A stretch of 64,000 nt of DNA from a bacterium (GTDB lineage: Bacteria; Patescibacteriota; Gracilibacteria; UM-FILTER-43-11). Under the pieces are notes generated by a model. It was not told where the DNA came from. It saw nothing but the letters and a program-made list of their open reading frames with translations, and did no database searches. The stretch lies in the NCBI GenBank assembly GCA_030427295.1, contig JAUHWS010000001.1, positions 14,079 through 78,078 on the forward strand, given 5' to 3'. Made by a program: the position numbers and the translations under genes. Below, in pieces: positions 955-60,352 of this stretch. Position 1 is the stretch's first letter; each line of letters begins with the position of its first letter.

Positions 955-1025
955 TCTTAGAGCTGGTAGCTTGTAGCTGAGAGCTGGTAGGCTAGTCGGT
1001 ATTTGGAATAACTTAAATTATTCCA
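955..1025 (-). repeat. AGCTNNN heptamer word array; inverted partial copy of the interior of modules 36931-37149 and 60134-60352
   Basis: agctggt agcttgt agctgag agctggt aggctag tcggtatttggaataacttaaatta is the reverse complement of ..taatttaagttattctaaataccgactagtctaccagctaacagctaatagctacc.. at about 60255-60310. It begins 6 nt after the phosphatase stop. Confidence 0.75.
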
Positions 1026-1143
1026 TCAGGGCCTCCCCCTTAATCTTATTAAGTTCACCTTATTGTCCCCCTCCTCAGGGAGGGGGAAAGAGATTAACGG
1101 ATGAATCACTTTTAGGGGGGGTCTAAATGAAAATTGAAATCAT

Positions 1144-1343
1144 CCCTGAAGGCGAGGTTTGCAAACCTCGCCTTCATTGAAAAATAAGAAAACCATTTGT
1201 CATCCTTGGAACCCAAAGGGCCCCCTTAGGGGCTTGATCCAAGAGTCGTCTGTATTTGGAACTTCTGAATTCAAAAAGACTCCCGAGTTCACCTTTCTGG
1301 TAAACCACTCGCTAAGCTCGTGGACCATAAAGGCTCGGGAGTG
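1144..1343 (+). repeat. About 200-bp structured repeat R, copy 1 (second copy at 49811-50009)
   Basis: Near-identical by eye to 49811-50009. Contains a 10-bp-stem hairpin gaaggcgagg..cctcgccttc, a tgtcat-ccttgga..tccaaga-gtcgtc hairpin, and a 9-bp inverted repeat actcccgag..ctcgggagt. Confidence 0.85.
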
Positions 1344-1362
1344 GTAGTGGGGTGTAGGGTGA

Positions 1363-1626
1363 GTATATACTTTGGATTGGGGTGGGTATATACTTTTTCT
1401 CAATGACCAATTTCCAATGTCTCAGTTTCCAAATAAAATCGAATTCTGAATATCTAATTTTTAAACCTTATTCAGACTTTAAATGGCTTAAATAAAACAA
1501 ATTATAAACCATTTGGACATTAAAAATTCAAATTTAGAATTTGTTTGGAAAGTATTGGAATGAATTAGTGAGTATTGGAATGAATTAAGACATAGGTATA
1601 TAGATGAGGAGAGGGTGAGTATATAC
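1363..1626 (+). repeat. GTATATAC double-box module M1 (interior type 1)
   Basis: Boxes at 1363-1370, 1386-1393, 1596-1603 (GTATATAG) and 1619-1626. The interior is an AT-rich word array (ccaatttccaa.. / ..attggaatgaatta) homologous in inverted orientation to 14407-14680. The last box directly abuts the stop codon (1627-1629) of the minus-strand glycosyltransferase gene. Confidence 0.85.
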
Positions 1627-2703
1627 TCACTCCTCCCTCAAGACCTCATACACCTGTTGGGCACAAGTTTCCCAGCGGTATTTTTTGAGGGTTTCAGGAT
1701 GTTTTTTTGTTTTCAAATCCTCTCCTTTTTTAGCCCCTGCAACCCGCTCCATCAACTGGCTCAATTGGACAGCATCGTCGACCTCAAAAAAGAAAGCATT
1801 TTCTGAGGCAATTTCTTTTGAGGTCGGAATCGCTGAAGCAATGATGGGGATGTCTGCATCCATGGCTTCTAAAAGGGGGATTCCAAAACCTTCTTCTCGA
1901 GAGGGAAAGACAAAAGCCAAGGCATGATGTAAAAACACCTGTTTCTCTTCCTCCGAAATGAAGCCTGGCAATACCACTTGGTCTTTCACATGGGGGGGAA
2001 TGGTTTTTAAAATGGCCTCCCCGCCATGGCCTGGAAACCCCGCCAGGACCAATTTAACCTCCTTGTTCCCCTCTCCAAAAAGACCAAAAGCCTGAATCAG
2101 CCGATCTGAGTTTTTTTTATATTCAATCCGTCCCACATACAAAAAATACCCCTTATCCTTCAAATCATATTTCTCTAGGATCTTTTTCTCTTCAATGGGC
2201 TGGACCGAAACCGTTGAAGGGGAAAAGCCCAAAGGAATCACTCTAATTTTCTCAGGATCACAGTCATAATAATGGATCAAATCAGCTTTGGTTTTCTCGG
2301 ACGGCGTGATGATGCGATGAGCCCGTTTGACCGCAAATCGAGTGGCCCAATCCAAATACCAGCGCGATTTCCGGCTGTAGCTTTTAGGCGAGTATTTAAA
2401 CACCACATCATGAATGGTGATGATCGATTTTTTGGGATGAATCAGGGGTAAAACATGAGAAGGAACAAAGAGCGTTTGAATTTCCTTATTCCTCAAAACC
2501 TCCCAACTCAAACGAAGATGGGTCCAAAGTCTCCGAAAAGGAATGGTAATCTGTTTCACTGGTAAATCAATCTTTCGAGGGCTAATCAAGGTGATGTCAT
2601 CCCCATAAGCCTTCACCAAATGCTGGATCAAAAAATAGGAATAATTCTCCACACCCGTGCGCTTTTCGGTGTTGTTGTAACGCGAGGCGTCGATAAATAT
2701 CAT
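1627..2703 (-). CDS. Glycosyltransferase family 4 (GT-B, group 1)
   Basis: 358-aa ORF with a C-terminal EEGFGIPLLEAMDADIPIIAS motif typical of GT4/group-1 glycosyltransferases. Confidence 0.85.
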   Translation of the reverse strand: MIFIDASRYNNTEKRTGVENYSYFLIQHLVKAYGDDITLISPRKIDLPVKQITIPFRRLWTHLRLSWEVLRNKEIQTLFVPSHVLPLIHPKKSIITIHDVVFKYSPKSYSRKSRWYLDWATRFAVKRAHRIITPSEKTKADLIHYYDCDPEKIRVIPLGFSPSTVSVQPIEEKKILEKYDLKDKGYFLYVGRIEYKKNSDRLIQAFGLFGEGNKEVKLVLAGFPGHGGEAILKTIPPHVKDQVVLPGFISEEEKQVFLHHALAFVFPSREEGFGIPLLEAMDADIPIIASAIPTSKEIASENAFFFEVDDAVQLSQLMERVAGAKKGEDLKTKKHPETLKKYRWETCAQQVYEVLREE

Positions 2704-2768
2704 TTCGGATGGGTTACGGATGGGATGCGAATTGTTTTCGAATAGGTTGCGAATGGCTTACGAATAGT
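2704..2768 (+). repeat. 11-nt periodic array, about 6 units (ttcggatgg gttacggatgg gatgcgaattg ttttcgaatag gttgcgaatgg cttacgaatag)
   Basis: Exact 11-nt phasing read from the sequence. On the minus strand it runs directly into the start codon of the GT4 gene (ccatccgaaATG). Confidence 0.85.
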
Positions 2769-2872
2769 TGTTATCAACGGAATATCAGCCACCATCCGGC
2801 CAAAAATGCGGCCCACTAATCAGAGTACACTTAACGAATTAATCCAAAGCTAGTCCTTACAAAAAAGTTGCA

Positions 2873-3291: not shown

Positions 3292-4548
3292 TCACTGGCC
3301 GCCCGGCGAAACCGCTTGGCGGCTTTTGAGTTTAGATTGTTTGCGCTTATCAAATCCCCAGAGCAAGTAGGGAATCAACAAAATAGAAGCAAAAATGGGA
3401 AAAGCTCCCAAGCTCAAGCCCCCGTATAAAAACCCTCCAAACATCGGCGCCAAGCCATTACTCCCCGCCATAATGGATTCGTCCACTCCCGTCACCCGCC
3501 CTTGTTCTTTTTCACTCACCGCACCGGTCAACATGGTCTTAAAGGTTGGCATACTGAGGCCCATCCCCAAATTAGTCAAATACATCAACGCGAAATAGAC
3601 CATCAAGTTCACCCTGAAAAATAATGCAGCAATGCTCAAAGCTAAAACCAATTGACCCAGATTAAACGTTTTTCGATTTCCTAATTTTTTAGCCAATTTA
3701 GGAGCGATCAGGGCATGATTAAAGACAGAAAAAATACCGATCACCAACATCAAAAGGCCCAACTCCTTAGCATCCAACCCTAAAAAATCTTTTGCATATA
3801 AGGCAAACGTCGAGGTAAAAGTTCCAAAAGCGAAGGCGAAGATAAAGTGCCTCCAAAAAAGGTGGGTGACCAGCTTATTATCTTTAAATTCTCGAATTTT
3901 CTTCACTATATTGATCTCAGACCACAAATGGATTTCCAGTTCCTTGTCTCGTTTTTCATCCGTCAGCGATTCTTTTAAATACAAAATAATCATCAGCAGA
4001 GTAAACAATGAAATTGCCGCAGCAGCGATGACGGTTCCCAAATAACCAATTGAAAACGAAGTGGTGTAGCCTCCTAAAACGGGGCCAACAATAAAACCTA
4101 GGCCAAAGATAGCCCCCACCATGCCATAAAATTTGGTCCTCTCTTCCCGCGTACTGATATCAGCGATGTAGGCATTAGCGACTGAGTTATTCCCCCCCGT
4201 GATGCCATCAATCATGCGGGACAAAAAGATCACTAAAATGGGCAACGAAATTCCCAAAATATCAATGTTGGGTAAAAAATAAGCGATCCCAAAAATCACC
4301 CAACTCAACAAAGTCCCTGCCTGACTCAAAATCAAGGTAGGCCGTCGGCCATATTTATCACTCAGTGAGCCAATGATCGGGGCACCCAAAAACTGAAAAA
4401 AAGCATAAGCTGAAAGCAGTAATCCATACGTAATTGCTCCCGCCCCATAACGCTCGGTCACAAAAGGGAGGACGGGAATCAAAATACTGAATCCAATGGT
4501 GTTCACAAAAGTCAGCAGACCAATGGGGAGGAATTTTTTGCTTGTCAT
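3292..4548 (-). CDS. MFS transporter (drug/H+ antiporter, tetracycline-efflux-like)
   Basis: 418 aa, about 12 hydrophobic segments, MFS loop motif SDKYGRRPTLIL. Confidence 0.85.
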   Translation of the reverse strand: MTSKKFLPIGLLTFVNTIGFSILIPVLPFVTERYGAGAITYGLLLSAYAFFQFLGAPIIGSLSDKYGRRPTLILSQAGTLLSWVIFGIAYFLPNIDILGISLPILVIFLSRMIDGITGGNNSVANAYIADISTREERTKFYGMVGAIFGLGFIVGPVLGGYTTSFSIGYLGTVIAAAAISLFTLLMIILYLKESLTDEKRDKELEIHLWSEINIVKKIREFKDNKLVTHLFWRHFIFAFAFGTFTSTFALYAKDFLGLDAKELGLLMLVIGIFSVFNHALIAPKLAKKLGNRKTFNLGQLVLALSIAALFFRVNLMVYFALMYLTNLGMGLSMPTFKTMLTGAVSEKEQGRVTGVDESIMAGSNGLAPMFGGFLYGGLSLGAFPIFASILLIPYLLWGFDKRKQSKLKSRQAVSPGGQ

Positions 4549-4663: not shown

Positions 4664-4906
4664 TAACCATCCGTAAAACCATCCATAAACCGTACTTTCA
4701 ATGGTGGGCCGAAGGCTGGCCGCATAGTGGCTGATATTAGTTTTATAACCACCATTGGGTCCACAACTCGGTCCACCATCCGCCCCACGATTCGTAAGCT
4801 ATCCGTAGAACAATTCGTTAACCATTCGTAAAACCATCCGAAAACAATTCGTAGGCTATTCGTAAACAATTCGTTAACCATCCGCAACCCATCCGTAACC
4901 CATTCG
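4664..4906 (-). repeat. 11-nt periodic arrays (CCATTCGTAAN on the + strand): about 3 units, a hairpin-containing gap, then about 12 units
   Basis: ..aagctatccgt agaacaattcgt taaccattcgt aaaaccatccg aaaacaattcgt aggctattcgt aaacaattcgt taaccatccgc aacccatccgt aacccattcg. On the minus strand it begins 1 nt after the rny stop. The central gap carries a 9-bp inverted repeat, caatggtgg..ccaccattg. Confidence 0.85.
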
Positions 4907-4908
4907 AT

Positions 4909-6471
4909 CTACTTCGCCACATCCATCGCACGAATTTCACGAATCACCTGCACCTTGATGGTTCCAGGATAAGCGAGTTCTTGCTCAATCTTTCGCGCAA
5001 TCTCATGAGAGAGTTTGATGGCCTGCATGTCATCCACATCCTTTGGACGAACAAACACCCGGATTTCACGACCCGCTTGGATGGCATACGCCTTTTCCAC
5101 TCCCTCAAACGAGGTGCCCACGCGTTCCAAATCCTTCAAGCGTCTCAAATAAGTCTCAACGGTTTCGCTACGAGCCCCCGGACGAGCCGCTGAAATCGCA
5201 TCAGCCGCTTGAACCACCAAAGCTTCAGCGGTATTCACCGGTATTTCTTCATGATGGGCCTCCACGGCGTGAACCACCTTCTCGGGCAAACCATATTTTC
5301 GCAAAATATCGGCCCCAATCAAGGCATGACTCCCTTCAATGTCGTGATCGACGGCCTTCCCAATGTCGTGCAAGAAGCCAGCGGTCTTAGCCGCTTGGGC
5401 ATCCGCCCCAATGCTGTCAGCAATTTGGCCTGCCAAAAAACCAACTTCCATACTGTGTTTCATCACATTTTGACCATAGCTGGTTCGAAAGCGTAGTCGT
5501 CCAATGATCTTGATCAAGTCTGGATGCAACCCTGTGATTCCCATTTCAAAGGCGGCCTTCTCCCCAAATTCTTTCATCATTTGATGAATTTCTTCCTTCG
5601 TTTCTTCCACAACCGACTCAATGCGGGCTGGGTGAATGCGACCATCTTCCACTAATTTTTCTAAAGCCCGCTTAGCGACGTAGCGACGCACCAAGTCAAA
5701 GCCAGAAATCATGATGGCATTTGGAGTGTCATCCACAATCACATCCACTCCCGTCAAATGTTCAAAGGCGTTAATGTTCCGCCCCTCCTTACCGATCACC
5801 CGGCCTTTAATATCATCATTTGGCAAAGCCACCATGGTCTGGGTCGATTCTGAGGTGACATCCGAAGCCATCTTCTGAATCGCAGATGCAATCACATTGG
5901 TCGCTTCTTTTTTGGCCTCCTCCTTAACTTCCTCATTCATTTGTTTGTAATGCTCCACCAGTTCATCTTTGTACTCCCGTTCCATATTATTCAAAAGCAT
6001 TTGACGGGCTTCTTCTTTCGTCAATTTGGTGATGTTAGCCAGTTTTTCCTCTTGTTCTTGATACAACGCTTCAATTTTATCTTCGGTCTGCTTGAGTTTT
6101 TCTTCACGTTGCTCATAAGCCAACTTCTGTTTCTCGATATCCGAAAGTTTTTTCTCTAAATTATCCTCCTTGGTGATGAGGCGTTCTTCATGTTTTTCAA
6201 GTTGTCGGCGCATGGACTGCTCTTCCTTTTTAGCCTCCTCAACAATTTCCAAGGCCTTGTTTTTAGCATCGACAATTTTCTCTTTCAGTTTGGTCTCGGC
6301 GTCAGCGGCTTTTCGTTCAAGTTCACTCAACTTCTTATCGGCCTGGGCAATCTTTTTTTGATTGGCCTCCTCAATCTTTCTTAGGTAATTGTTACCCTCC
6401 GACTTGAAGTAGATGTAAACACCAGCTGCACCAATGATTAAGCCAATAATGGCATAAATTAGGCTGCTCAT
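4909..6471 (-). CDS. rny: Ribonuclease Y
   Basis: N-terminal TM helix, long coiled-coil, KH domain (GRVIGKEGRNI) and HD domain (FLHDIGK). The ORF opens at TTG 6495; ATG 6471 (MSSLIYAIIG..) is the more likely start. Confidence 0.93.
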   Translation of the reverse strand: MSSLIYAIIGLIIGAAGVYIYFKSEGNNYLRKIEEANQKKIAQADKKLSELERKAADAETKLKEKIVDAKNKALEIVEEAKKEEQSMRRQLEKHEERLITKEDNLEKKLSDIEKQKLAYEQREEKLKQTEDKIEALYQEQEEKLANITKLTKEEARQMLLNNMEREYKDELVEHYKQMNEEVKEEAKKEATNVIASAIQKMASDVTSESTQTMVALPNDDIKGRVIGKEGRNINAFEHLTGVDVIVDDTPNAIMISGFDLVRRYVAKRALEKLVEDGRIHPARIESVVEETKEEIHQMMKEFGEKAAFEMGITGLHPDLIKIIGRLRFRTSYGQNVMKHSMEVGFLAGQIADSIGADAQAAKTAGFLHDIGKAVDHDIEGSHALIGADILRKYGLPEKVVHAVEAHHEEIPVNTAEALVVQAADAISAARPGARSETVETYLRRLKDLERVGTSFEGVEKAYAIQAGREIRVFVRPKDVDDMQAIKLSHEIARKIEQELAYPGTIKVQVIREIRAMDVAK

Positions 6472-14405: not shown

Positions 14406-14406
14406 A

Positions 14407-14680
14407 GTATATACTCATCCTCTCCCCAACTATATACCTAAGTCTTAAATTTCCAATTCACACCAATTCATTCCAATTCACCCCAAACAAATTTTAAAGT
14501 CTAATTCTTAATTTCTAAATTGGTTTGAATTTGCTTTATTTAAGCTATCTTTATTCCAAATAATGTTTAAAAATTAGACATTCGGAATTCGGTTTTATTT
14601 GGAAATTGTGACATTGGAAATTGGTCATTGAGAAAAAGTATATACCCACCCTCACAAAAAGTATATACCTAAGTATATGG
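14407..14680 (-). repeat. GTATATAC double-box module M2 (interior type 1, inverted relative to M1)
   Basis: Boxes at 14407-14, 14430-37 (CTATATAC), 14638-45 and 14661-68, plus a degenerate box at 14673-80. The first box starts 1 nt after the murF TGA (ggTGAaGTATATAC). Confidence 0.85.
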
Positions 14681-14714
14681 TTGTCATTCCCCCGCCACGG
14701 CGGGGGAATCGTCC
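14681..14714 (+). repeat. GTCATTCC-hairpin-GGAATCGTCC element
   Basis: ttgtcattcccccgccacggcgggggaatcgtcc. The architecture matches the elements at 19738, 20128 (inverted) and 20198. Confidence 0.75.
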
Positions 14715-14764
14715 AAATTCAGAAAAACTAAATACAGGTCACCCTCGGACTCACGTTCAGCAAC

Positions 14765-19014: not shown

Positions 19015-19296
19015 TCAATAGACTTCGTCGTGTGAACCAATGTTAAGCAGCCAAATTCCATCTTTTTTTCGTCGAAAAATAACTCTTAGGTCGTAAGTCA
19101 GTGAAAAAGCATAACGGTCTTTCATATCACCCTTTAATTTGTGTATTTTTAAAGATTCTGATTGAAATTCAAGGTGAGATAAAAGCGCAATGGCGTTTAA
19201 CAATAGTGAGATGACTGAAGGTCTTTTCTTAATTAGCTTCTGAAAATTTCGATCAAATTGCTTACTGATTTTTATGACAATCCTCATTTGCTTCAA
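19015..19296 (-). CDS. RelE/YafQ-family type II toxin (mRNA interferase)
   Basis: HKLKGDMKDRYAFSLTYDLRVIFRR..LLNIGSHDEVY, a RelE/ParE-superfamily C-terminal pattern. It overlaps the upstream antitoxin gene. Confidence 0.75.
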   Translation of the reverse strand: MKQMRIVIKISKQFDRNFQKLIKKRPSVISLLLNAIALLSHLEFQSESLKIHKLKGDMKDRYAFSLTYDLRVIFRRKKDGIWLLNIGSHDEVY

Positions 19297-19585
19297 TTAT
19301 TGTTTCAAAATGTTTTTCTAATGCTTCTATGCTATTAAAAGAGCCCGCAACTTTCCCTCGTTCCATGTCACGTTCAGCTTCCAAAGTTTCTTGTACAAAC
19401 AATTCGTGCTTCAAATCCTTGATCATCTCATGGAGTCGATTGAGCTCGTTAATATCGATCATGGCGACGTCAAATTCCGAATGAGTTAAAACAGGCACGA
19501 CCTTCTCTTTTTTAACCCGTTCTAAAAGCGATTTAGGATCCCGCCGCATGTCGGTAACGGTGGCAGGTTGGACAATATAAGTCAT
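19262..19585 (-). CDS. Phd/YefM-like type II antitoxin
   Basis: N-terminal ..TVTDMRRDPKSLLERVKKEKVVPVLTHSEFDVAMIDINELNRL (Phd/YefM-like). It lies directly upstream of the toxin and overlaps it. Confidence 0.65.
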   Translation of the reverse strand: MTYIVQPATVTDMRRDPKSLLERVKKEKVVPVLTHSEFDVAMIDINELNRLHEMIKDLKHELFVQETLEAERDMERGKVAGSFNSIEALEKHFETIIEANEDCHKNQ

Positions 19586-19737
19586 TTTGCGATATTTATT
19601 GCTAATATTTGTATTATATATGATGCTATATTTAATGTCAAATTTAGTGCTATTTTTAAGTTATCCTAGTTCAATAGCTCAAAAACTAAGCAGTTCCTCT
19701 ATTTGTAGTGAAATGACAGTTAGAGCCAACTACACAA

Positions 19738-19780
19738 TGTCATTCCACACCGAAGCGAAGCGGAAAGCGTGGAATCGTCC
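19738..19780 (+). repeat. GTCATTCC-hairpin-GGAATCGTCC element
   Basis: tgtcattccacaccgaagcgaagcggaaagcgtggaatcgtcc. Confidence 0.8.
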
Positions 19781-20084: not shown

Positions 20085-20127
20085 TTGGTACAGGAAAAGT
20101 ATTGAGTAAGGATGAATTATAGTCATT

Positions 20128-20159
20128 GGACGATTCCATGGTCAAGCCATGGAATGACA
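20128..20159 (-). repeat. GTCATTCC-hairpin-GGAATCGTCC element (inverted orientation)
   Basis: The reverse complement reads tgtcattccatggcttgaccatggaatcgtcc. Confidence 0.8.
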
Positions 20160-20197
20160 ATCAAAAATTTAAGCTCAAAAATAAAAATAATTACAAA

Positions 20198-20240
20198 TGT
20201 CATTCCACACCGGAGCAAAGCGGAGAGCGTGGAATCGTCC
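20198..20240 (+). repeat. GTCATTCC-hairpin-GGAATCGTCC element
   Basis: tgtcattccacaccggagcaaagcggagagcgtggaatcgtcc, near-identical to 19738-19780. Confidence 0.8.
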
Positions 20241-20312
20241 CAATACAAATTTCCTAACCCTTTGCTTGCACCCACCCTTCTGCTATCATGTTTTCCGACT
20301 AACTTGATCGAC

Positions 20313-21359
20313 ATGCAATCCAAAATTGAATCCCTCAAAAAAGACACCCTCACGGCTTTAGAAAAGGCTAAAACCGAAGACGAGGTACGCGAGCTCGAGA
20401 TCAAATATTTAGGTCGAAAAGGGCCGTTCAGCGATCTGATGCGTGGACTCAAAGACCTCTCCGATGAGGAAAAGCGAACCGTAGGAAAGTTAGCCAACAT
20501 GGTGAAAAAAGAATTAGAGCTCGCGGTCCAACAAAAATACGCTGCCCTCGAAACTGCTGCCATGGATGAAATTGTCGAAACGGAGTGGCTCGATGTCACG
20601 GTGCCAGGCAAAAAACCCCAAATGGGACACCGGCACCTCATCTCCAAATTTATCGACGACCTCGAAGTCATTTTTGGACGCATGGGCTTTTCCGTCGCCG
20701 AAGGCCCTGACATCGAAACCGAACACTTCAACTTCGATCAGCTCAACATGCCCGACGACCATCCCGCCCGGGACATGCAAGATACCTTCTGGCTCAAAAA
20801 TTTAGACAAATCCGTCCTCCGCACCCAAACCTCCCCCGTCCAGATCCGCTATATGGAGGCGCATAACCCCCCCCTTCGCATCATCAGCATGGGAAAAACC
20901 TTTCGTAAAGACAGCGATGCCACCCATTCCCCCATGTTCCATCAATGTGAAGGCTTGATGGTCGGCGAAAACATTTCCATCGCTAATCTAAAAGGTGTGA
21001 TGACCGCCTTTCTTCAGCAAGTATTTGAAGACGATTCCATTAAAACCCGTTTTCGCACCAGTTATTTTCCCTTCGTCGAACCCGGGCTCGAAGTCGACTG
21101 CACCTGCCCCATCTGCCATGGTGAAGGTCGTCTCCCGGATCACTCGCCTTGCCGACTCTGCAAACAATGTGGCTGGCTCGAGATTGGCGGAGCAGGGATG
21201 GTTCATCCAAAAGTCCTTGAAAATGTGGGCTATGATCCTCAAAAATTTACCGGTTTTGCCTTTGGAATGGGGCTCGATCGCATGGTGATGATCAAATACC
21301 GAGTCAATCACCTCCGCCTCCTGTTTGAAAATGATTTGAGATTCATTGAACAATTCTAA
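20313..21359 (+). CDS. pheS: Phenylalanine--tRNA ligase alpha subunit
   Basis: Class II aaRS motifs (HPARDMQDTFW, LRTQTSPVQIRYM, FRKDSDATHSPMFHQCEG, GFAFGMGLDRMVMIKY). The ORF opens at 20112, but the first 67 codons translate the hairpin repeats. ATG 20313 (MQSKIESLKKD) is the likely start. Confidence 0.93.
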   Translation: MQSKIESLKKDTLTALEKAKTEDEVRELEIKYLGRKGPFSDLMRGLKDLSDEEKRTVGKLANMVKKELELAVQQKYAALETAAMDEIVETEWLDVTVPGKKPQMGHRHLISKFIDDLEVIFGRMGFSVAEGPDIETEHFNFDQLNMPDDHPARDMQDTFWLKNLDKSVLRTQTSPVQIRYMEAHNPPLRIISMGKTFRKDSDATHSPMFHQCEGLMVGENISIANLKGVMTAFLQQVFEDDSIKTRFRTSYFPFVEPGLEVDCTCPICHGEGRLPDHSPCRLCKQCGWLEIGGAGMVHPKVLENVGYDPQKFTGFAFGMGLDRMVMIKYRVNHLRLLFENDLRFIEQF

Positions 21360-21488
21360 TTCGAATGGTTTACGGATTGCTGCGAATCGCTAACGGATCG
21401 TTTAACGAATAGATTGTCACTCTGAATGCAAACCATTCGTAAGCCATTCGTAAAACAACTCGTTAAACCATGCGTGGAACAATCCGAA
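21360..21488. repeat. Two opposed 11-nt periodic arrays (CGAATGG-type, then CCATTCG-type) filling the whole spacer
   Basis: ttcgaatgg tttacggattg ctgcgaatcg ctaacggatcg tttaacgaatag ... aaaccattcgt aagccattcgt aaaacaactcgt taaaccatgcgt ggaacaatccgaaATG. Confidence 0.85.
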
Positions 21489-23530: not shown

Positions 23531-23559
23531 ATCGAATGTCATTCTCGTTTCGCAAAAAG

Positions 23560-23589
23560 CTAACCACTGATCACTAGCCACTATCCACT
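23560..23589 (-). repeat. Heptamer word array (reverse complement: gtggata gtggcta gtgatca gtggtta)
   Basis: Runs directly into the rpe ATG at 23590. Inverted partner of 22827-22855. Confidence 0.7.
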
Positions 23590-27558: not shown

Positions 27559-27682
27559 TCGCAAAATAATGCTTCAGCTTGCACATGAGTCTCATTCTAA
27601 GCCTCCTGTTTCAGCTTATGTACCATTTTGCTCTTTCCCATGAAATATGCCTTCGACTTCGCATTTTATGGGGACCTCTGAC

Positions 27683-27773
27683 TAATCGCTAATCGCTAAT
27701 CGCTAATCGCTAATCACTAATCGCTAATCACTAATCGCTAATCACTAATCACTAATCGCTAATCACTAATCGC
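27683..27773 (+). repeat. Perfect-phase heptamer microsatellite, 13 units of TAATCGC/TAATCAC
   Basis: Read directly. The order of G/A unit variants is G G G G A G A G A A G A G. Confidence 0.92.
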
Positions 27774-27873
27774 TCTTTAAAAATCATTGATATTTCCGCA
27801 AAGCCGAAAACGCACACCAGCCGAACAAAGAATTCCCCTTCCTCTCCCGCCCGCTTTACACTACAATACAGCC

Positions 27874-28521: not shown

Positions 28522-28650
28522 TGAAGCGACTAGCGAGTAGCGACGAGCGATTAGCTAAAATAGATCTTAGAATAGAGCTAAACACTACACGCCAATCGCT
28601 AAACGCTCTAAAAATTCGTAATTCGTAATTTGTAACTCGTAATTAAAAAG
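28522..28650 (-). repeat. Box-less copy of module interior type 2 (AGCGNNN and ATTCGTA heptamer blocks)
   Basis: tgaagcgact agcgagt agcgacg agcgatt agc ... aattcgt aattcgt aatttgt aactcgt aatt aligns with the reverse complement of 31140-31270. It fills the ftsE-purM spacer. Confidence 0.75.
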
Positions 28651-31088: not shown

Positions 31089-31102
31089 GAGTGTGCACTT
31101 AG

Positions 31103-31343
31103 GTATATACTTTGGGTTGGGGTGGGTATATACTTTCGCCTCAATTACGAGTTACTAATTACGAATTACGAGTTTATTTTTTGAGCGTATAGCGATCAGC
31201 GTATAGCGTTTAGCTTTTTAAAATAAGGTTTTTAGCTAATCGCTACTCGCTATTCGCTAATCGCTTGTTGAAAAATGTATTGAGATGGTGCTCAGCATTT
31301 TGAAGAGGGTGAGTATATAGTTGAGGCGAGGATGAGTATATAC
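31103..31343 (+). repeat. GTATATAC double-box module M3 (interior type 2)
   Basis: Boxes at 31103-10, 31126-33, 31313-20 (GTATATAG) and 31336-43. The interior has ATTACGA x4, AGCGNNN x5 and CGCTANT x4 heptamer blocks, homologous to 50039-50270. Confidence 0.85.
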
Positions 31344-31404
31344 TCTTGGCACTCTCCTAAAATTATGTTAGCCTAAAGGCACTTTATTAACCTATTTTTT
31401 CTTT

Positions 31405-33995: not shown

Positions 33996-34110
33996 ACGAA
34001 TGGGATGCGGATAGGTTGCGAATGGGCGACGGATAGTTTTACGAATGGCTTCACGGATGGTTTACGGATTGTTTTTGAATAGGGTGCGAATAGGTTACGA
34101 ATTGATTTCG
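33996..34110 (+). repeat. 11-nt periodic array, about 10 units (acgaatgg gatgcggatag gttgcgaatgg gcgacggatag ...)
   Basis: Starts at the nt immediately after the dprA TAA. It lies between convergent genes. Confidence 0.88.
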
Positions 34111-35945: not shown

Positions 35946-36350
35946 ATGCTGTTCGTCCTACTCTCCATCCATTTGGGATTCATGTTTCTCATCCTTTCAC
36001 CCACCCCCCTACTCTTTCGAATGAACTACGAATCCCTCCCCCTGGTAGAGGCTTCTCTGATTCCCAAAAAGGTCCAACGTTTTTTAGAGGATTCAAGCAC
36101 ACCTCTTTCCATTTCCTCAGATGGGGCGGTCAATTTCTCCGACCAACTCAAGGCCAAATTCCTCGAATTCCGTCGCGAAAAATTTTTGGATGACACCGAA
36201 CGTCTCGCCCTCGATCTCAGTCTGGTCAACTTTGGCTCAGACATTTTGGGTATGGAAGCCGGCGCTCAATATTATTTTCAAAAACCTCTCAGTGATCTCA
36301 CCGAGGACCAATGGATGTCGCTGATTTATTTTCAGGCGATTTTTAATTGA
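35946..36350 (+). pseudogene. Truncated/degenerate GT51 peptidoglycan transglycosylase-like gene
   Basis: TM helix, then ..IPKKVQRFLEDSS.. where EDxxFxxHxG is expected, then LDLSLVNFGSDILGMEAGAQYYFQKPLSDLTEDQWMSL (GT51 motif-3-like). The ORF ends about 80 aa early, directly at an 11-mer array. Confidence 0.45.
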
Positions 36351-36436
36351 GCGGATAGGTTACGAATGGGTTGCGGATAGCTGCGAATGGTTTACGAATA
36401 GTTAACGGATAGGTTGCGGATGGGTAGCGAATGGTT
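36351..36436 (+). repeat. 11-nt periodic array, about 8 units (gcggatag gttacgaatgg gttgcggatag ctgcgaatgg tttacgaatag ttaacggatag gttgcggatgg gtagcgaatgg)
   Basis: Starts at the nt after the TGA at 36348-50. Confidence 0.88.
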
Positions 36437-36849: not shown

Positions 36850-36930
36850 CCTAGGAGGGGGCTGTTATTTTTCCCTCTCCTAACATTTTAGGAGAGGGAC
36901 ACAGGGTGAGGTCCTGGATAAAAGAATGAA

Positions 36931-37149
36931 GTATATACTCACCCTCTCCTCAACTATATACCTATCCTCCTCAAAAAGCTGAGAGCTCGCAGCTTGTCGC
37001 TGGGAGTGAAATTCAGTTGATACAATTCTCTATTCATCTTAAATAAGAGATAATTTGAGTTATTCTAAATATTGAATAGTCTACCAGCTAACAGCTAATA
37101 GCTACCAGCTAGAAAAAAGTATATACTAACCCCACCATAAAGTATATAC
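36931..37149 (-). repeat. GTATATAC double-box module M4 (interior type 3)
   Basis: Boxes at 36931-38, 36954-61 (CTATATAC), 37119-26 and 37142-49. The interior, with ACCAGCT/AACAGCT/AATAGCT heptamers, is homologous to 60134-60352. Confidence 0.85.
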
Positions 37150-47236: not shown

Positions 47237-47281
47237 TTTTACAGAACTCGCTAATCACTAACCGCTAATCGCTCTAATTCT

Positions 47282-49810: not shown

Positions 49811-50009
49811 CCCTGAAGGCGAGATTGGCTAATCTCGCCTTCATTGAAAAATAAGAAAACCATTTGTCATCCTTGGAACCCTAAGGGCCCCTTAGGGGCT
49901 TGATCCAAGAGTTGTCTGTATCTGGAACCTCTGAATTCAAAAAGACTCCCAAGTTCACCTTTTTGGTAAACCACTCGCTAAGCTCGTGGACCATAAAGGC
50001 TCGGGAGTG
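49811..50009 (+). repeat. About 200-bp structured repeat R, copy 2
   Basis: Near-identical to 1144-1343 and likewise followed directly by a GTATATAC module. Confidence 0.85.
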
Positions 50010-50038
50010 ACATTAAGGTGTGGGGTAGGTATATACTT

Positions 50039-50270
50039 TGTGTGAGGGTTAGTATATACTTTATTCTTAGTTACGAATTACGAGTGACGAATTACGAGTT
50101 GATTTTTTGAGCGTTTAGCGGTCAGCGTATAGCGTTTAGCTCTATTCTAAGCTCTATTTCAGCTAATCGCTAGCCACTCACCACTGACCACTTGCCGAAA
50201 AAGGAAGCGGGACGATTCCCAGCATTTCGAAGAAGGTAGGTATATAGTTGGGAAGAAGGTGAGTATATAC
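50039..50270 (+). repeat. GTATATAC double-box module M5 (interior type 2)
   Basis: Boxes at 50039-46, 50062-69, 50240-47 (GTATATAG) and 50263-70. The interior is homologous to M3. Confidence 0.85.
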
Positions 50271-50282
50271 TTCTTTTCCAGC

Positions 50283-53529: not shown

Positions 53530-54018
53530 ATGAAAAGCGTAGTAAGCACATCACTTTCTCGTAAACTCAAATCCGGCGTCCTGTGGGGGCTGGGATTTTT
53601 TGCGGCTTTTGGGTTGGCATTTTATGCCTACGCCATTGGATTTCCTGACACCCAACCGGGTCCCGCCTCTGGCGTCGTGGGGATGTTTGTAGGAGCCACG
53701 CCCCAGGTTTATACTGGAAACATCAGCAATTACGACAAGGCCAATGGAAATTGCATCGACGCCTACGAAGACAGCCACATTTGCACGACCACCGAAATAA
53801 TCAATACTTACAATCACAATTCAGCTACCCTTCTGGGTCAAACCGATAGTTTTTGGGTCAACGGTGGCAGCCCTGCAAATCTAGAAGACTTCAGCAGTGA
53901 TTGTTTAGGATGGAGCACGGATCTTAGTGTTGCTTTCGGATATGTATGGGATACCGGTGATCAGCGGGCCTACCTCACCTCCTGCGACCAACAGCGCGCT
54001 TTTGCTTGTTGCAAGTAG
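53530..54018 (+). CDS. Membrane-anchored/secreted Cys-rich protein
   Basis: ATG 53530 (MKSVVSTS..) precedes a TM/signal helix. The C-terminal domain has 6 Cys (..NGNCIDAYEDSHICTT..SSDCLGWST..YLTSCDQQRAFACCK). A C-type-lectin/endostatin-like fold is only a guess. Confidence 0.55.
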   Translation: MKSVVSTSLSRKLKSGVLWGLGFFAAFGLAFYAYAIGFPDTQPGPASGVVGMFVGATPQVYTGNISNYDKANGNCIDAYEDSHICTTTEIINTYNHNSATLLGQTDSFWVNGGSPANLEDFSSDCLGWSTDLSVAFGYVWDTGDQRAYLTSCDQQRAFACCK

Positions 54019-54072
54019 GTCCGAATGGGTTGCGAATTGGCCGCGAATAGTTCACGGATAGATTACGAATTG
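54019..54072 (+). repeat. 11-nt periodic array, about 5 units, followed by three TGGACCNNNTGG 12-mers
   Basis: gtccgaatgg gttgcgaattg gccgcgaatag ttcacggatag attacgaattg. Starts at the nt after the TAG at 54016-18. Confidence 0.85.
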
Positions 54073-54184
54073 TGGGACGGGTGGTGGACCGAGTTGTGGA
54101 CCAAATGGTTGTCTTAACTGAATAGAAACCACAACCCGGCCAACAATGCGGCCCACGGATTGACTTGGATAAAACAAAATAAAT

Positions 54185-56469: not shown

Positions 56470-56470
56470 A

Positions 56471-56554
56471 ATGTCTGATGTCTAATGGGCTAATGTCTAA
56501 TGGGGACAATCATTTGGAAAATACAAAAAGCATAAGACATTAGACATCAGACAT
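56471..56554. repeat. Perfect 17-bp inverted repeat (atgtctgatgtctaatg / cattagacatcagacat) with a 50-nt loop
   Basis: Left arm 56471-56487, right arm 56538-56554. Built from agacatc/agacatt heptamer words. It starts 1 nt after the lipoprotein stop and is followed by an A-run, not a T-run. Confidence 0.85.
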
Positions 56555-56566
56555 CAAAAAAACCCT

Positions 56567-58369: not shown

Positions 58370-58402
58370 TAGCGATTAACGATTAGCGAGTAACGAATAA
58401 CA
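58370..58402 (-). repeat. Heptamer word array (tagcgat taacgat tagcgag taacgaa taac)
   Basis: Starts at the nt after the rpsJ TAA. Confidence 0.75.
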
Positions 58403-58832: not shown

Positions 58833-58863
58833 CTAATCGATAATCGTTACTCGTTAATCGTTA
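58833..58863 (+). repeat. Heptamer word array (ctaatcg ataatcg ttactcg ttaatcg tta)
   Basis: Starts at the nt after the TAG at 58830-32. Confidence 0.75.
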
Positions 58864-59921: not shown

Positions 59922-59922
59922 A

Positions 59923-60164
59923 GTATATACTCACCTTCTCCTCATCTATATACCTACCCTCTATGAAATGCTGAAGTTCATTTCGATACCTTTTTCAACA
60001 AGCGAATAGCGAGTAGCGAGTAGCGATTAGCTAAAATACAGCTTTCAGAAGCCCCCTCTAACTCCCCCGAAGGGGGAGGGTAAATAATGCTTCCTTGCAC
60101 CTCGCACTTAGCCCGCCGCACTTGTGACGAAAAGTATATACTTATCATCTTCCTAACTATATAC
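59923..60164 (-). repeat. GTATATAC double-box module M6 (interior partly type 2)
   Basis: Boxes at 59923-30, 59946-53 (CTATATAC), 60134-41 and 60157-64 (CTATATAC). The first box starts 1 nt after the oxidoreductase TGA (gTGAaGTATATAC). The interior contains agcgaat agcgagt agcgagt agcgatt agc and a ctcccccgaagggggag hairpin. Confidence 0.85.
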
Positions 60165-60352
60165 TCACCCTCTGAAAAAAGCTGGGGGCTCAGAGCTTGT
60201 TGCTGGGAGTAAAATTCGGTTAGTATAGCTCTTCATTCGTCTTAAATAAGAGGTAATTTAAGTTATTCTAAATACCGACTAGTCTACCAGCTAACAGCTA
60301 ATAGCTACCATCTCGAATAAAGTATATACCCACCCTACCTTCAAGTATATAC
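60134..60352 (-). repeat. GTATATAC double-box module M7 (interior type 3), sharing its left box pair with M6
   Basis: Boxes at 60134-41, 60157-64, 60322-29 and 60345-52. The interior is homologous to 36931-37149. Confidence 0.85.

What the first reader, a model, noticed from the sequence alone, without database searches (positions are those of the whole stretch)
33996..34110. Six 11-nt periodic CGAATGG/CGGATAG arrays that begin at stop codons and, in the opposite orientation, run into start codons
Arrays of 5-12 units with strict 11-nt phasing (consensus about GTTRCGRATDG) occur at 2704-2768, 4664-4906, 21360-21488, 33996-34110, 36351-36436 and 54019-54072. In all five cases where the CGAATGG orientation lies on the sense strand downstream of a gene, the array starts 0-1 nt after the stop codon: dprA TAA|acgaatgg, 36350 TGA|gcggatag, 54018 TAG|gtccgaatgg, pheS TAA|ttcgaatgg, and rny TAG|a|tcgaatgg on the minus strand. 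In the two cases where the CCATTCG orientation precedes a gene, the last unit runs into the ATG: ccatccgaaATG for the GT4 gene and caatccgaaATG for the J-domain gene. Strand-specific placement relative to ORF boundaries argues for function at the RNA or transcription level, for example a 3'-UTR or leader platform for a multimeric RNA-binding protein, or protein-dependent termination. The 11-bp period also matches one helical turn, as in iteron arrays bound by RHH-type proteins.
Basis: seen in the sequence. Interest (0 to 1): 0.85.

Follow-up and report, generated by a model that had tools for sequence, protein, structure and literature searches.

The report
Polar 11-bp repeat arrays flanking genes
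A candidate-phyla-radiation bacterium (Peregrinibacteria) and its relatives fill the gaps between genes with arrays of an 11-base repeat that always point away from the neighbouring gene; this is a new variant of bacterial "extragenic repeat" whose function is unknown but which appears to be maintained by selection.

Summary
The window holds 52 units in 7-8 arrays. Each unit is a 4-nt A/T-rich spacer plus the core CGRATDG, mostly 11 nt apart. All five arrays downstream of genes start 1-3 nt after a native stop codon. Both upstream arrays end 2 nt before the ATG.

The rule is not strand-specific RNA placement. It is a mirror rule: the 5' end of the G-rich strand always faces a coding sequence. 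Arrays often occur as inverted pairs (-> <-) that fill the whole spacer from stop to next start.

The same architecture occurs in other Peregrinibacteria and Gracilibacteria genomes and in many low-GC metagenome contigs: 15 -> <- pairs and no <- -> pairs. Arrays persist at orthologous sites across about 23% DNA divergence, yet are absent at the rny locus of five relatives, which carry an intrinsic terminator there.

The two arms are systematically non-complementary, so the mRNA strand folds worse than the antisense strand (11 of 13).

My best reading is a clade-wide, REP/BIME-like extragenic repeat family read at the DNA level. It is not a 3'-UTR RNA-binding platform. Function remains unproven. 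The adjacent PUR-like gene is ancestral synteny, not a lead.

The parts
2704..2767 (+). Array A: 6 units. The 5' end lies 2 nt from the start codon (CAT on the + strand) of the GT4 gene 1627-2703(-). This is a 'start arm'.
2776..2816 (+). Partial copy (3' arm only) of the variant-repeat hairpin element that follows arrays B and F.
   Evidence: D18, 83% to 54116-54156
4788..4906 (-). Array B1: 11 units on the minus strand. It starts 2 nt after the native stop of rny (4909-6471, minus strand).
4691..4787 (-). Hairpin element made of variant 11-12-nt units (GGACCGAGTTGT type) in inverted orientation. A 20-nt core is identical to the copy at 54083-54102.
   Evidence: (I6)
4667..4685 (-). Array B2: 2 further forward units distal to the hairpin element, upstream of the MFS gene.
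21360..21412 (+). Array C1: 5 units. 'Stop arm' starting 2 nt after the pheS stop.
21433..21486 (-). Array C2: 5 units in inverted orientation. 'Start arm' ending 2 nt before the ATG of the J-domain gene (21489). C1 and C2 together form a fold-back that fills the whole spacer.
33996..34104 (+). Array D (the flagged one): 10 units, solitary stop arm 1 nt after the dprA stop. Predicted unstructured as RNA (z=+2.0).
36351..36434 (+). Array E: 8 units, 1 nt after the native stop of a conserved 145-aa transglycosylase-like ORF. The orthologous locus L242 has only one core-like unit (gTGGATAG) at this position.
54019..54072 (+). Array F: 5 units, 3 nt after the native stop of the ORF ending at 54018.
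54073..54165 (+). Variant-unit hairpin element following array F. The whole spacer folds at -56.7 kcal/mol (z=-3.3).

Best explanation
The arrays are copies of a clade-specific family of repetitive extragenic elements found in Peregrinibacteria/Gracilibacteria-type CPR bacteria.

The building block is an 11-bp unit: a 4-bp A/T-rich spacer plus the core CGRATDG. Units form polar arms. The complete element is a fold-back of two inverted arms (-> <-) whose outer ends sit 1-6 nt from the flanking coding sequences, with a stop on one side and the next start on the other. Solitary arrays are single arms.

Shown:
- the architecture;
- the fixed polarity;
- the spread across genomes;
- retention at orthologous sites with turnover of unit number;
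- gain or loss at other sites.

Inferred:
- The conserved core, spaced one helical turn apart, is read on duplex DNA by a sequence-specific protein that binds cooperatively along one face. This could be the enzyme that propagates the element or a host nucleoid or transcription-unit boundary protein.
- The element is tolerated, and possibly used, in tiny spacers because the degenerate core positions are chosen so that the mRNA strand does not form a strong hairpin.
- Close abutment to coding sequences reflects a compact genome, where the only permissive sites lie between a stop or start and the next functional signal.
For: Architecture and polarity:
- In all 7 window arrays the 5' end abuts a CDS; no 3' end does.
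- 15 -> <- pairs and 0 <- -> pairs were found in low-GC loci.
- In metagenome contigs the 5' end abuts a CDS in 29 of 96 arrays and the 3' end in 11 of 96 (p=0.006).

Same element in other genomes:
- L092, a Peregrinibacteria MAG: TAA|a|TCGAATGG x4, then CAATCCGA x4, then ATG.
- L054, a Gracilibacteria MAG: TAA|t|CGGATTG x12.
- L185, L176, L210, L167, L222, L181, L129 and L201 each show stop | forward arm | reverse arm | ATG.

The core is conserved while the spacer differs between lineages: GTTA/GTTG, ATAT/ATTT, CTAA.

Dispersal:
- The L176 and L210 elements are 90% identical, loop included, between unrelated gene pairs.
- The window hairpin modules share an identical 20-mer.

Retention:
- L126 and L136 are orthologous at 77% nucleotide identity and keep the array. 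Its first three units are about 92% identical.
- The pheS-dnaJ spacer carries a fold-back in the window, L243 and L244.

Gain or loss:
- Five rny orthologous loci lack arrays and carry an intrinsic terminator instead.
- L242 has a single core-like unit where the window has eight.

DNA-level rather than mRNA-level reading:
- The mRNA strand is less structured than the antisense strand in 11 of 13 fold-backs.
- The arms differ at position 5 (p=0.0014).
- The solitary array is less structured than shuffles.

Precedents: about half of E. coli REPs lie within 15 nt of a stop (PMC12306157). TAACTGA heptamer repeats end 1 nt before start codons (PMC4679880).
Against: - No binding protein, transposase or RAYT-like gene was identified in the window.
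- No target-site duplications flank 13 fold-backs.
- The permissive-site argument is qualitative. Several arrays (D, E) have free spacer on their inner side yet sit 1 nt from the stop.
- The pheS-dnaJ spacer keeps a fold-back in three genomes with different repeat sequences, and L244 even has the reverse arm order. That argues for selection on structure at that locus, not on a DNA motif.
- The better-folding antisense strand could itself be the functional RNA or ssDNA.
- Other repeat families in this genome (heptamers, GTATATAC boxes) also abut stops. A general repeat-generating process may therefore contribute.
Confidence: 0.5

Rival explanations
1. RNA-level platform. Forward arrays in 3' UTRs, or leader arrays, are single-stranded binding sites for a multimeric RNA-binding protein. 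The protein would terminate transcription, protect 3' ends or control translation.
For: - Every stop-adjacent arm is in the same sense orientation.
- The solitary dprA array is predicted to be less structured than 198 of 200 shuffles, as expected of a single-stranded platform.
- At rny the array sits where five relatives have an intrinsic terminator.
- UAG-containing cores (position 5 = A) are enriched in stop arms.
Against: - Start-adjacent arms present the complement of the motif on the mRNA, so a single RNA motif cannot explain both.
- Arms nearly always come as fixed -> <- pairs.
- Sense arrays are G-rich and C-poor, which is anti-rut. No U-tract follows them.
- The proposed PUR-like binder is present in relatives with no arrays at this locus.
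Confidence: 0.15
2. Intercistronic RNA hairpin. Paired arms fold so that the stop of gene 1 and the start of gene 2 sit at the base of one imperfect stem. The stem would modulate mRNA processing or stability, or couple translation: the terminating ribosome melts the outer unit and unmasks the next start.
For: - Fold-backs fill spacers exactly from stop to ATG in more than 12 loci.
- The pheS-dnaJ spacer folds significantly in three related genomes despite different sequences (z=-2.5, -3.1, -2.4).
- The F module folds at z=-3.3.
- No U-tract is present, so read-through is possible.
Against: - In 11 of 13 fold-backs the sense strand folds worse than the antisense strand. For L092, L185 and L222 it folds no better than shuffles.
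- The arms are systematically non-complementary at two core positions.
- Solitary arms (D, E; the long 12-unit arm of L054 faces only 2 reverse units) cannot form such a stem.
- The core sequence is conserved across lineages, which a pure structure does not require.
Confidence: 0.17
3. Non-functional minisatellites. Slippage or recombination expands short repeats in the few nucleotides of dispensable DNA in a streamlined genome. Purifying selection on coding sequences sets the boundaries.
For: - Many unrelated repeat families in the window also abut coding sequences (15 of 43).
- Some arms are 100% homogeneous, implying recent expansion.
- Unit number differs between orthologous loci.
- The window has 17% intergenic DNA, against roughly 8-10% left uncovered by ORFs in relatives.
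Against: - The same core, and the same heptamer families, recur across divergent genomes.
- Five core positions are invariant while six others vary.
- Arrays are retained at orthologous sites at 77% flanking identity, with array identity above that of the flanks.
- The absolute -> <- polarity (15:0) is not expected from slippage alone.
Confidence: 0.13
4. DNA-uptake signal (DUS/USS-like) for natural transformation in a competence-dependent CPR bacterium.
For: - dprA is present.
- Neisseria DUS often occur as inverted pairs after genes (my own knowledge, not tested here).
Against: Isolated cores are not over-represented (46 observed, about 51 expected), and the motif occurs essentially only in tandem arrays. 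No known uptake signal is a phased tandem array.
Confidence: 0.03

Closest known systems
REP/BIME (repetitive extragenic palindromic) elements of enterobacteria and pseudomonads
   Same: Both are genome-wide extragenic repeats with a conserved sequence. Both occur between co-transcribed genes or after genes, cluster in alternating orientation, and vary in copy number between strains. About half of E. coli REPs lie within 15 nt of a stop codon (PMC12306157).
   Different: A REP unit is itself a ~35-nt GC-rich hairpin. Here the unit is a non-palindromic 11-mer arranged in polar tandem arms, and only the arm pair is palindromic. No RAYT gene was seen. The sense RNA is weakly structured.
TAACTGA heptamer direct repeats of Beggiatoaceae, Cyanobacteria and Bacteroidetes (MacGregor 2015), and cyanobacterial STRR heptamers
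   Same: Both are short tandem direct repeats, almost all intergenic, with a fixed orientation relative to genes. The commonest TAACTGA distance is 1 nt before the start codon. Distribution is patchy across lineages and function is unknown. The window also carries heptamer arrays with the same behaviour.
   Different: The period here is 11 rather than 7, and the motif differs. These arrays also abut stop codons and form obligate -> <- inverted pairs. They are found in CPR bacteria.
Fold-back transposons and MITEs with subterminal repeats (Drosophila FB elements; Tn7/Mu-type ends with multiple transposase sites)
   Same: Both have inverted arms made of tandem subrepeats that read inward from the outer ends. 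Both are small and non-coding, with dispersed copies that keep their sequence between unrelated flanks.
   Different: No target-site duplication was found and no autonomous partner was identified. Arrays are retained at orthologous sites for long periods.
Phased 11-bp direct-repeat operators and centromeres (plasmid R1 parC/ParR; PhoB/OmpR-family boxes of 7 conserved + 4 A/T-rich bp)
   Same: The geometry matches: a 7-bp core plus a 4-bp A/T-rich spacer, one unit per helical turn, in arrays of 4-10 units. This suits cooperative binding on one DNA face (my own knowledge).
   Different: Those sites occur at one or a few promoters or on plasmids. Here there are 7-8 arrays in 64 kb of chromosome, next to housekeeping genes and at 3' ends as well as 5' ends.

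Membership tests
REP/BIME | Extragenic, many dispersed copies with a conserved consensus | tested here: met
   7-8 arrays in 64 kb, all intergenic. The same core occurs in other genomes.
REP/BIME | Each unit is an imperfect GC-rich palindrome that forms a stem-loop | tested here: not met
   The 11-nt unit is not palindromic. The solitary array is less structured than shuffles (z=+2.0). Only arm pairs can fold.
REP/BIME | Association with a RAYT (TnpA_REP) transposase | not testable with these tools
   None found among the window proteins. The rest of the genome was not available.
MITE / fold-back transposon | Terminal inverted repeats | tested here: met
   15 of 15 pairs are -> <-. Arms 2705-2769 and 4843-4907 are 82% complementary.
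MITE / fold-back transposon | Target-site duplication flanking the element | tested here: not met
   No direct repeats at the outer flanks of 13 fold-backs.
MITE / fold-back transposon | Filled versus empty sites between related genomes | tested here: inconclusive
   The rny site is filled in the window and empty in five relatives, but other genes changed there too. At L242 one core-like unit is present at the 'empty' site.
Plasmid iterons / parC-type centromere | Phased direct repeats of about 11 bp | tested here: met
   Spacing is 11 nt in 33 of 44 intervals.
Plasmid iterons / parC-type centromere | Located at a replication or partition locus (rep or par genes adjacent), one or a few per replicon | tested here: not met
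   Neighbours are rny, dprA, pheS, GT4 and dnaJ-like genes, within the fusA-tuf interval region. There are seven loci in 64 kb.
Intrinsic terminator | GC-rich hairpin followed by a U-tract | tested here: not met
   No U-run follows the arms in the sequences read. The relatives' rny terminators show the canonical form for comparison.
Rho utilisation (rut) site | C-rich, G-poor, unstructured RNA on the transcribed strand | tested here: not met
   Sense-strand units have about 4 G to 1 C. Only the complement is C-rich.
DNA uptake sequence (DUS/USS) | Genome-wide over-representation of single copies, including in genes | tested here: not met
   46 isolated cores against about 51 expected.
Known RNA families (Rfam 15) | Match at gathering score | tested here: not met
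   Only a tRNA was found in the window.

The most novel reading that the evidence does not exclude
The 11-mer arrays, together with the sister heptamer and GTATATAC families that also abut stops and starts, would form a small 'punctuation code'. Dedicated DNA-binding proteins in a CPR clade would read it as polar boundary elements that mark the ends of transcription units. These elements would replace intrinsic terminators (as at rny) and insulate promoters in genomes that have lost most conventional regulators.
Probability: 0.15. Interest if true: 0.85.

Novelty: new variant of a known kind. Interest (0 to 1): 0.6.

Why it matters
CPR/Patescibacteria genomes are regarded as streamlined and poor in repeats and regulators. 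This one has about 17% intergenic DNA built from a small repertoire of short tandem repeats. Lineages labelled Peregrinibacteria and Gracilibacteria share that repertoire. The repeats obey strict geometric rules: an 11-bp phase, a conserved core, arms that always point away from genes, and abutment to stop and start codons. They persist at orthologous sites.

That combination implies an unidentified sequence-specific factor. It also gives a concrete handle for finding it, by phylogenetic profiling of array-bearing against array-free genomes. The finding adds a third, independent case, after REP elements and TAACTGA/STRR heptamers, of extragenic repeats placed within a few nucleotides of coding boundaries. 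It therefore bears on the old question of what such elements do.

Tried and rejected
- **Rfam scan of the window.** Only a tRNA was found.
- **Loose three-unit pattern against genome contigs.** The pattern was too degenerate, and I estimate tens of chance hits in a collection of that size. Without a control motif this says nothing about cross-phylum enrichment. Only the CPR hits (L044, L054/L088, L092) were used.
- **Viral-contig scan.** Six unrelated hits.
- **Metagenome hits L122/L147.** These appear to be eukaryote-like satellite DNA and were discarded.
- **Replication-strand explanation.** GC skew shows no switch in the window. Array B follows a minus-strand gene in the minus orientation.
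- **Stop codons supplied by inserted arrays truncating genes.** Rejected: all five C-termini are native.
- **CsrA-like GGA sites, TRAP-like triplets, tRNA T-loop mimicry, integron attC cores.** I considered these from memory and dropped them, because about half the units lack the required bases or the geometry differs.
- **Target-site duplications.** None found.
- **Taxonomy of the metagenome loci by tblastn against window proteins.** Too few shared genes to place them.
- **Literature searches for CPR, Peregrinibacteria or Gracilibacteria intergenic repeats.** Nothing found.

Full report
**Source organism.** RNase Y homologues of the window protein are named Candidatus Peregrinibacteria or Patescibacteria by their sources. 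A 100% identical protein lies on an 80-kb NCBI contig. PheS homologues say the same. The window has 45% GC. About 17% of it is intergenic, against roughly 8-10% left uncovered by ORFs in related contigs.

**Checking the observation.** Reading the six loci and scanning for the core gives 52 units. Each has a 4-nt T-rich spacer plus CGRATDG.
- C0, G1, A3, T4 and G6 are essentially invariant. Position 2 is A or G, and position 5 is variable.
- Spacing is 11 nt in 33 intervals, 12 in 9 and 10 in 2.
- Three loci are composite. At 4664-4906 and 54019-54165 the array runs into a ~90-nt hairpin made of variant 11-12-nt units, with a 20-nt core identical between the two copies. A half copy follows array A.
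- 21360-21488 is two arms in opposite orientation.

**Junctions.**
- Stop arms: dprA TAA|a|CGAATGG, pheS TAA|tt|CGAATGG, rny TAG|at|CGAATGG (minus strand), TGA|g|CGGATAG at 36350, and TAG|gtc|CGAATGG at 54018.
- Start arms: CCATCCGaaATG for GT4 and CAATCCGaaATG for the J-domain gene.
- The stops are native. The rny C-terminus REIRAMDVAK* matches five orthologues. The PheS and DprA domains run to the end. The 145-aa ORF has a 70% identical orthologue of equal length. Homologues of the last ORF align to their final residue.
- Uniform placement inside each spacer would give such junctions with probability of about 1e-6 to 1e-7.
- An independent Logan assembly reproduces the dprA junction and five units.

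**The real rule is a mirror rule.** In all seven window arrays the 5' end of the G-rich strand faces a coding sequence. That is a stop on the same strand or a start on the opposite strand. The 3' end never does.

The same holds elsewhere:
- A Peregrinibacteria MAG (L092) has TAA|a|TCGAATGG x4, then CAATCCGA x4, then ATG.
- A Gracilibacteria MAG (L054) has TAA|t|CGGATTG x12.
- A Patescibacteria MAG (L044) and a dozen low-GC metagenome contigs show stop | forward arm | reverse arm | ATG filling the whole spacer.
- Across low-GC loci there are 15 -> <- pairs and no <- -> pairs.
- In metagenome arrays with at least 300 nt on both sides, the 5' end abuts a coding sequence in 29 of 96 and the 3' end in 11 of 96 (p=0.006).

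A solitary array is therefore best read as one arm of a fold-back.

**History of the arrays.** Five contigs syntenic with window positions 1-18 kb (RNase Y 77-84% identical) have no array after rny. They carry a canonical intrinsic terminator 4-15 nt after the stop. They also lack the MFS gene that the window has between rny and the PUR-like gene.

The family is nevertheless old:
- L243 (PheS 86% identical, same sample as the array-free rny locus L119) has a degenerate fold-back in the orthologous pheS-dnaJ spacer. It has another reverse array upstream of pheS, and the same AGTGGTN heptamer array 1-2 nt after the rpiB stop as the window.
- L126 and L136 are orthologous at 77% nucleotide identity and both keep an array at the same start codon, with 6 and 5 units. 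The first three units are about 92% identical, which is more conserved than the flanking genes.
- L176 and L210 carry elements that are 90% identical, loop included, between unrelated genes.
- At the orthologue of the E site (L242) there is no array, but one core-like unit follows the stop: TGA|gTGGATAG. Arrays may therefore nucleate on, or decay to, a single unit.
- No target-site duplications flank 13 fold-backs.

**RNA level or DNA level.**
- The solitary dprA array is predicted to be less structured than 198 of 200 shuffles.
- Paired arms can fold: pheS-dnaJ at -35.4 kcal/mol (z=-2.5) and module F at -56.7 (z=-3.3).
- The arms are systematically non-complementary at the two degenerate core positions. 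Stop arms favour CGAATAG/CGAATGG and start arms favour CGGATTG. Position-5 T is found in 32 of 64 start-arm units against 24 of 96 stop-arm units (p=0.0014; units within an array are not independent).
- As a result, the mRNA strand folds worse than the antisense strand in 11 of 13 fold-backs (p=0.02). For L092, L185 and L222 it folds no better than shuffles, while the antisense strand reaches z of about -3.2 to -3.5.
- Sense arrays are G-rich and C-poor, and no U-tract follows them.
- A motif conserved across lineages while the spacer changes, spaced one helical turn apart, and present in mirror image on both sides of genes fits recognition on duplex DNA better than a sense-strand RNA platform.
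- The exception is the pheS-dnaJ spacer. Three genomes keep a fold-back there with different repeat sequences, and L244 even has the opposite arm order with a CGATTGG-type unit. Structure itself looks conserved at that locus.

**Context.**
- The 11-mers are one of several repeat families in this genome. Heptamers (GCTAATC/AGCGATT, AATTACG, AATGTCT and others), 10-mers and a GTATATAC-pair module also begin 0-6 nt after stops or end just before starts. Of 43 other intergenic tandem arrays, 15 abut a coding sequence within 8 nt.
- Contig L185 shares the AATTACG and GATTAGC heptamers as well as the 11-mers.
- Isolated CGRATDG cores are not enriched (46 against about 51 expected). That excludes a DUS-like signal.
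- The PUR-like gene is adjacent to rny and GT4 in relatives with no arrays at this locus, so it is not a specific lead.
- No transposase or obvious repeat-binding protein is encoded in the window.

**Comparison with known systems.**
- REP/BIME elements share the extragenic location, alternating orientation and frequent position within 15 nt of stops (PMC12306157). However, a REP unit is itself a hairpin.
- TAACTGA heptamer repeats of Beggiatoaceae, cyanobacteria and Bacteroidetes are oriented toward start codons and most often end 1 nt upstream (PMC4679880). This is the closest published analogue, and its function is also unknown.
- Fold-back transposons share the arm architecture, but the target-site duplications are missing here.
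- The 7+4 bp geometry is that of ParR/parC or PhoB-type direct repeats. The genomic distribution is not.
- I found no paper describing such arrays in CPR bacteria.

**Verdict.** This is a new variant of a known kind of element. The mechanism is unproven. The best current model is phased protein binding on DNA, with the mRNA hairpin deliberately weakened.

Noticed in passing
window 14406-14440, 59922-59956, 1592-1627(-); further copies at 1360, 31100, 31310, 36930, 37118, 50026, 50237, 60130, 60321: A ~35-nt module consists of two palindromic GTATATAC boxes separated by a C/T-rich stretch (AGTATATACTCACCCTCTCCTCAnCTATATACCTA). In three cases it begins 0 nt after a stop codon (Mur ligase, the FMO-like gene, GT4), always in the same orientation to the gene. 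There are at least 12 copies in 64 kb.
   Followed up: partly
window 56470-56556, 58370-58401, 58833-58863, 28524-28555, 28613-28644, 23555-23589, 47248-47273, 27682-27774: Heptamer arrays (AATGTCT, AGCGATT/GCTAATC, AATTCGT, CCACTNA) start 0-3 nt after stop codons or run up to start codons. Some form inverted pairs (56470-56502 with 56531-56556). The G-rich version tends to follow stops and the complement tends to precede starts, as with the 11-mers.
   Followed up: partly
window 38480-59921: The conserved rpoB-rpoC-rpsL-rpsG-fusA-tuf-rpsJ region is interrupted by extra genes bounded by repeats. An SSB gene lies between rpoB and rpoC. An SLH protein and two unknown ORFs lie between rpsG and fusA. 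About 4 kb, including an S74-chaperone-domain protein, lies between fusA and tuf. A 23S-rRNA-IVP/bAvd-like gene and an FMO-like gene follow rpsJ.
   Followed up: no
window 1144-1396 vs 49811-50062; 1363-1580 vs 14451-14668 (inverted); 36929-37149 vs 60132-60352; 31100-31344 vs 50026-50271: Larger composite intergenic repeats of 115-250 nt, 73-91% identical. They are built from the small modules (GTATATAC boxes, heptamer arrays, a GC hairpin), which suggests modular mosaic elements.
   Followed up: no
window 14677-14715, 19736-19780, 20196-20240: A small palindromic element, TGTCATTCC-(hairpin)-GGAATCGTCC, is present in at least three copies. Two are 93% identical and lie 460 nt apart upstream of, and inside, the over-extended pheS ORF.
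   Followed up: no
window 20112-21359: The 415-aa pheS ORF is over-extended. Orthologues are 348 aa, so the true start is near 20313. Likewise rny is 520 aa (start at 6471), and the ORF ending at 54018 is probably about 165 aa.
   Followed up: yes
window 3292-4548(-): An MFS transporter gene sits between rny and the PUR-like gene only in this genome. Four relatives have rny directly next to the PUR-like gene, and a fifth (L119) has a different inserted ORF. This junction is therefore a recurrent insertion site.
   Followed up: partly
L244 7047-7121: The orthologous pheS-dnaJ spacer in a relative is a fold-back of a different 11-12-nt repeat (CCCATTGTGG / CGATTGGG) with the opposite arm order (<- ->). 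In this one the sense strand folds better than the antisense strand.
   Followed up: partly
window 955-1626: The convergent SpoIIE and GT4 genes overlap by 4 nt in relative L116. In the window they are separated by 672 nt made almost entirely of repeats, an extreme case of spacer inflation.
   Followed up: partly
window 19015-19585(-): A YafQ-type toxin ORF with an upstream small ORF (a likely antitoxin) lies next to pheS. The pair is conserved at the same place in L243.
   Followed up: no
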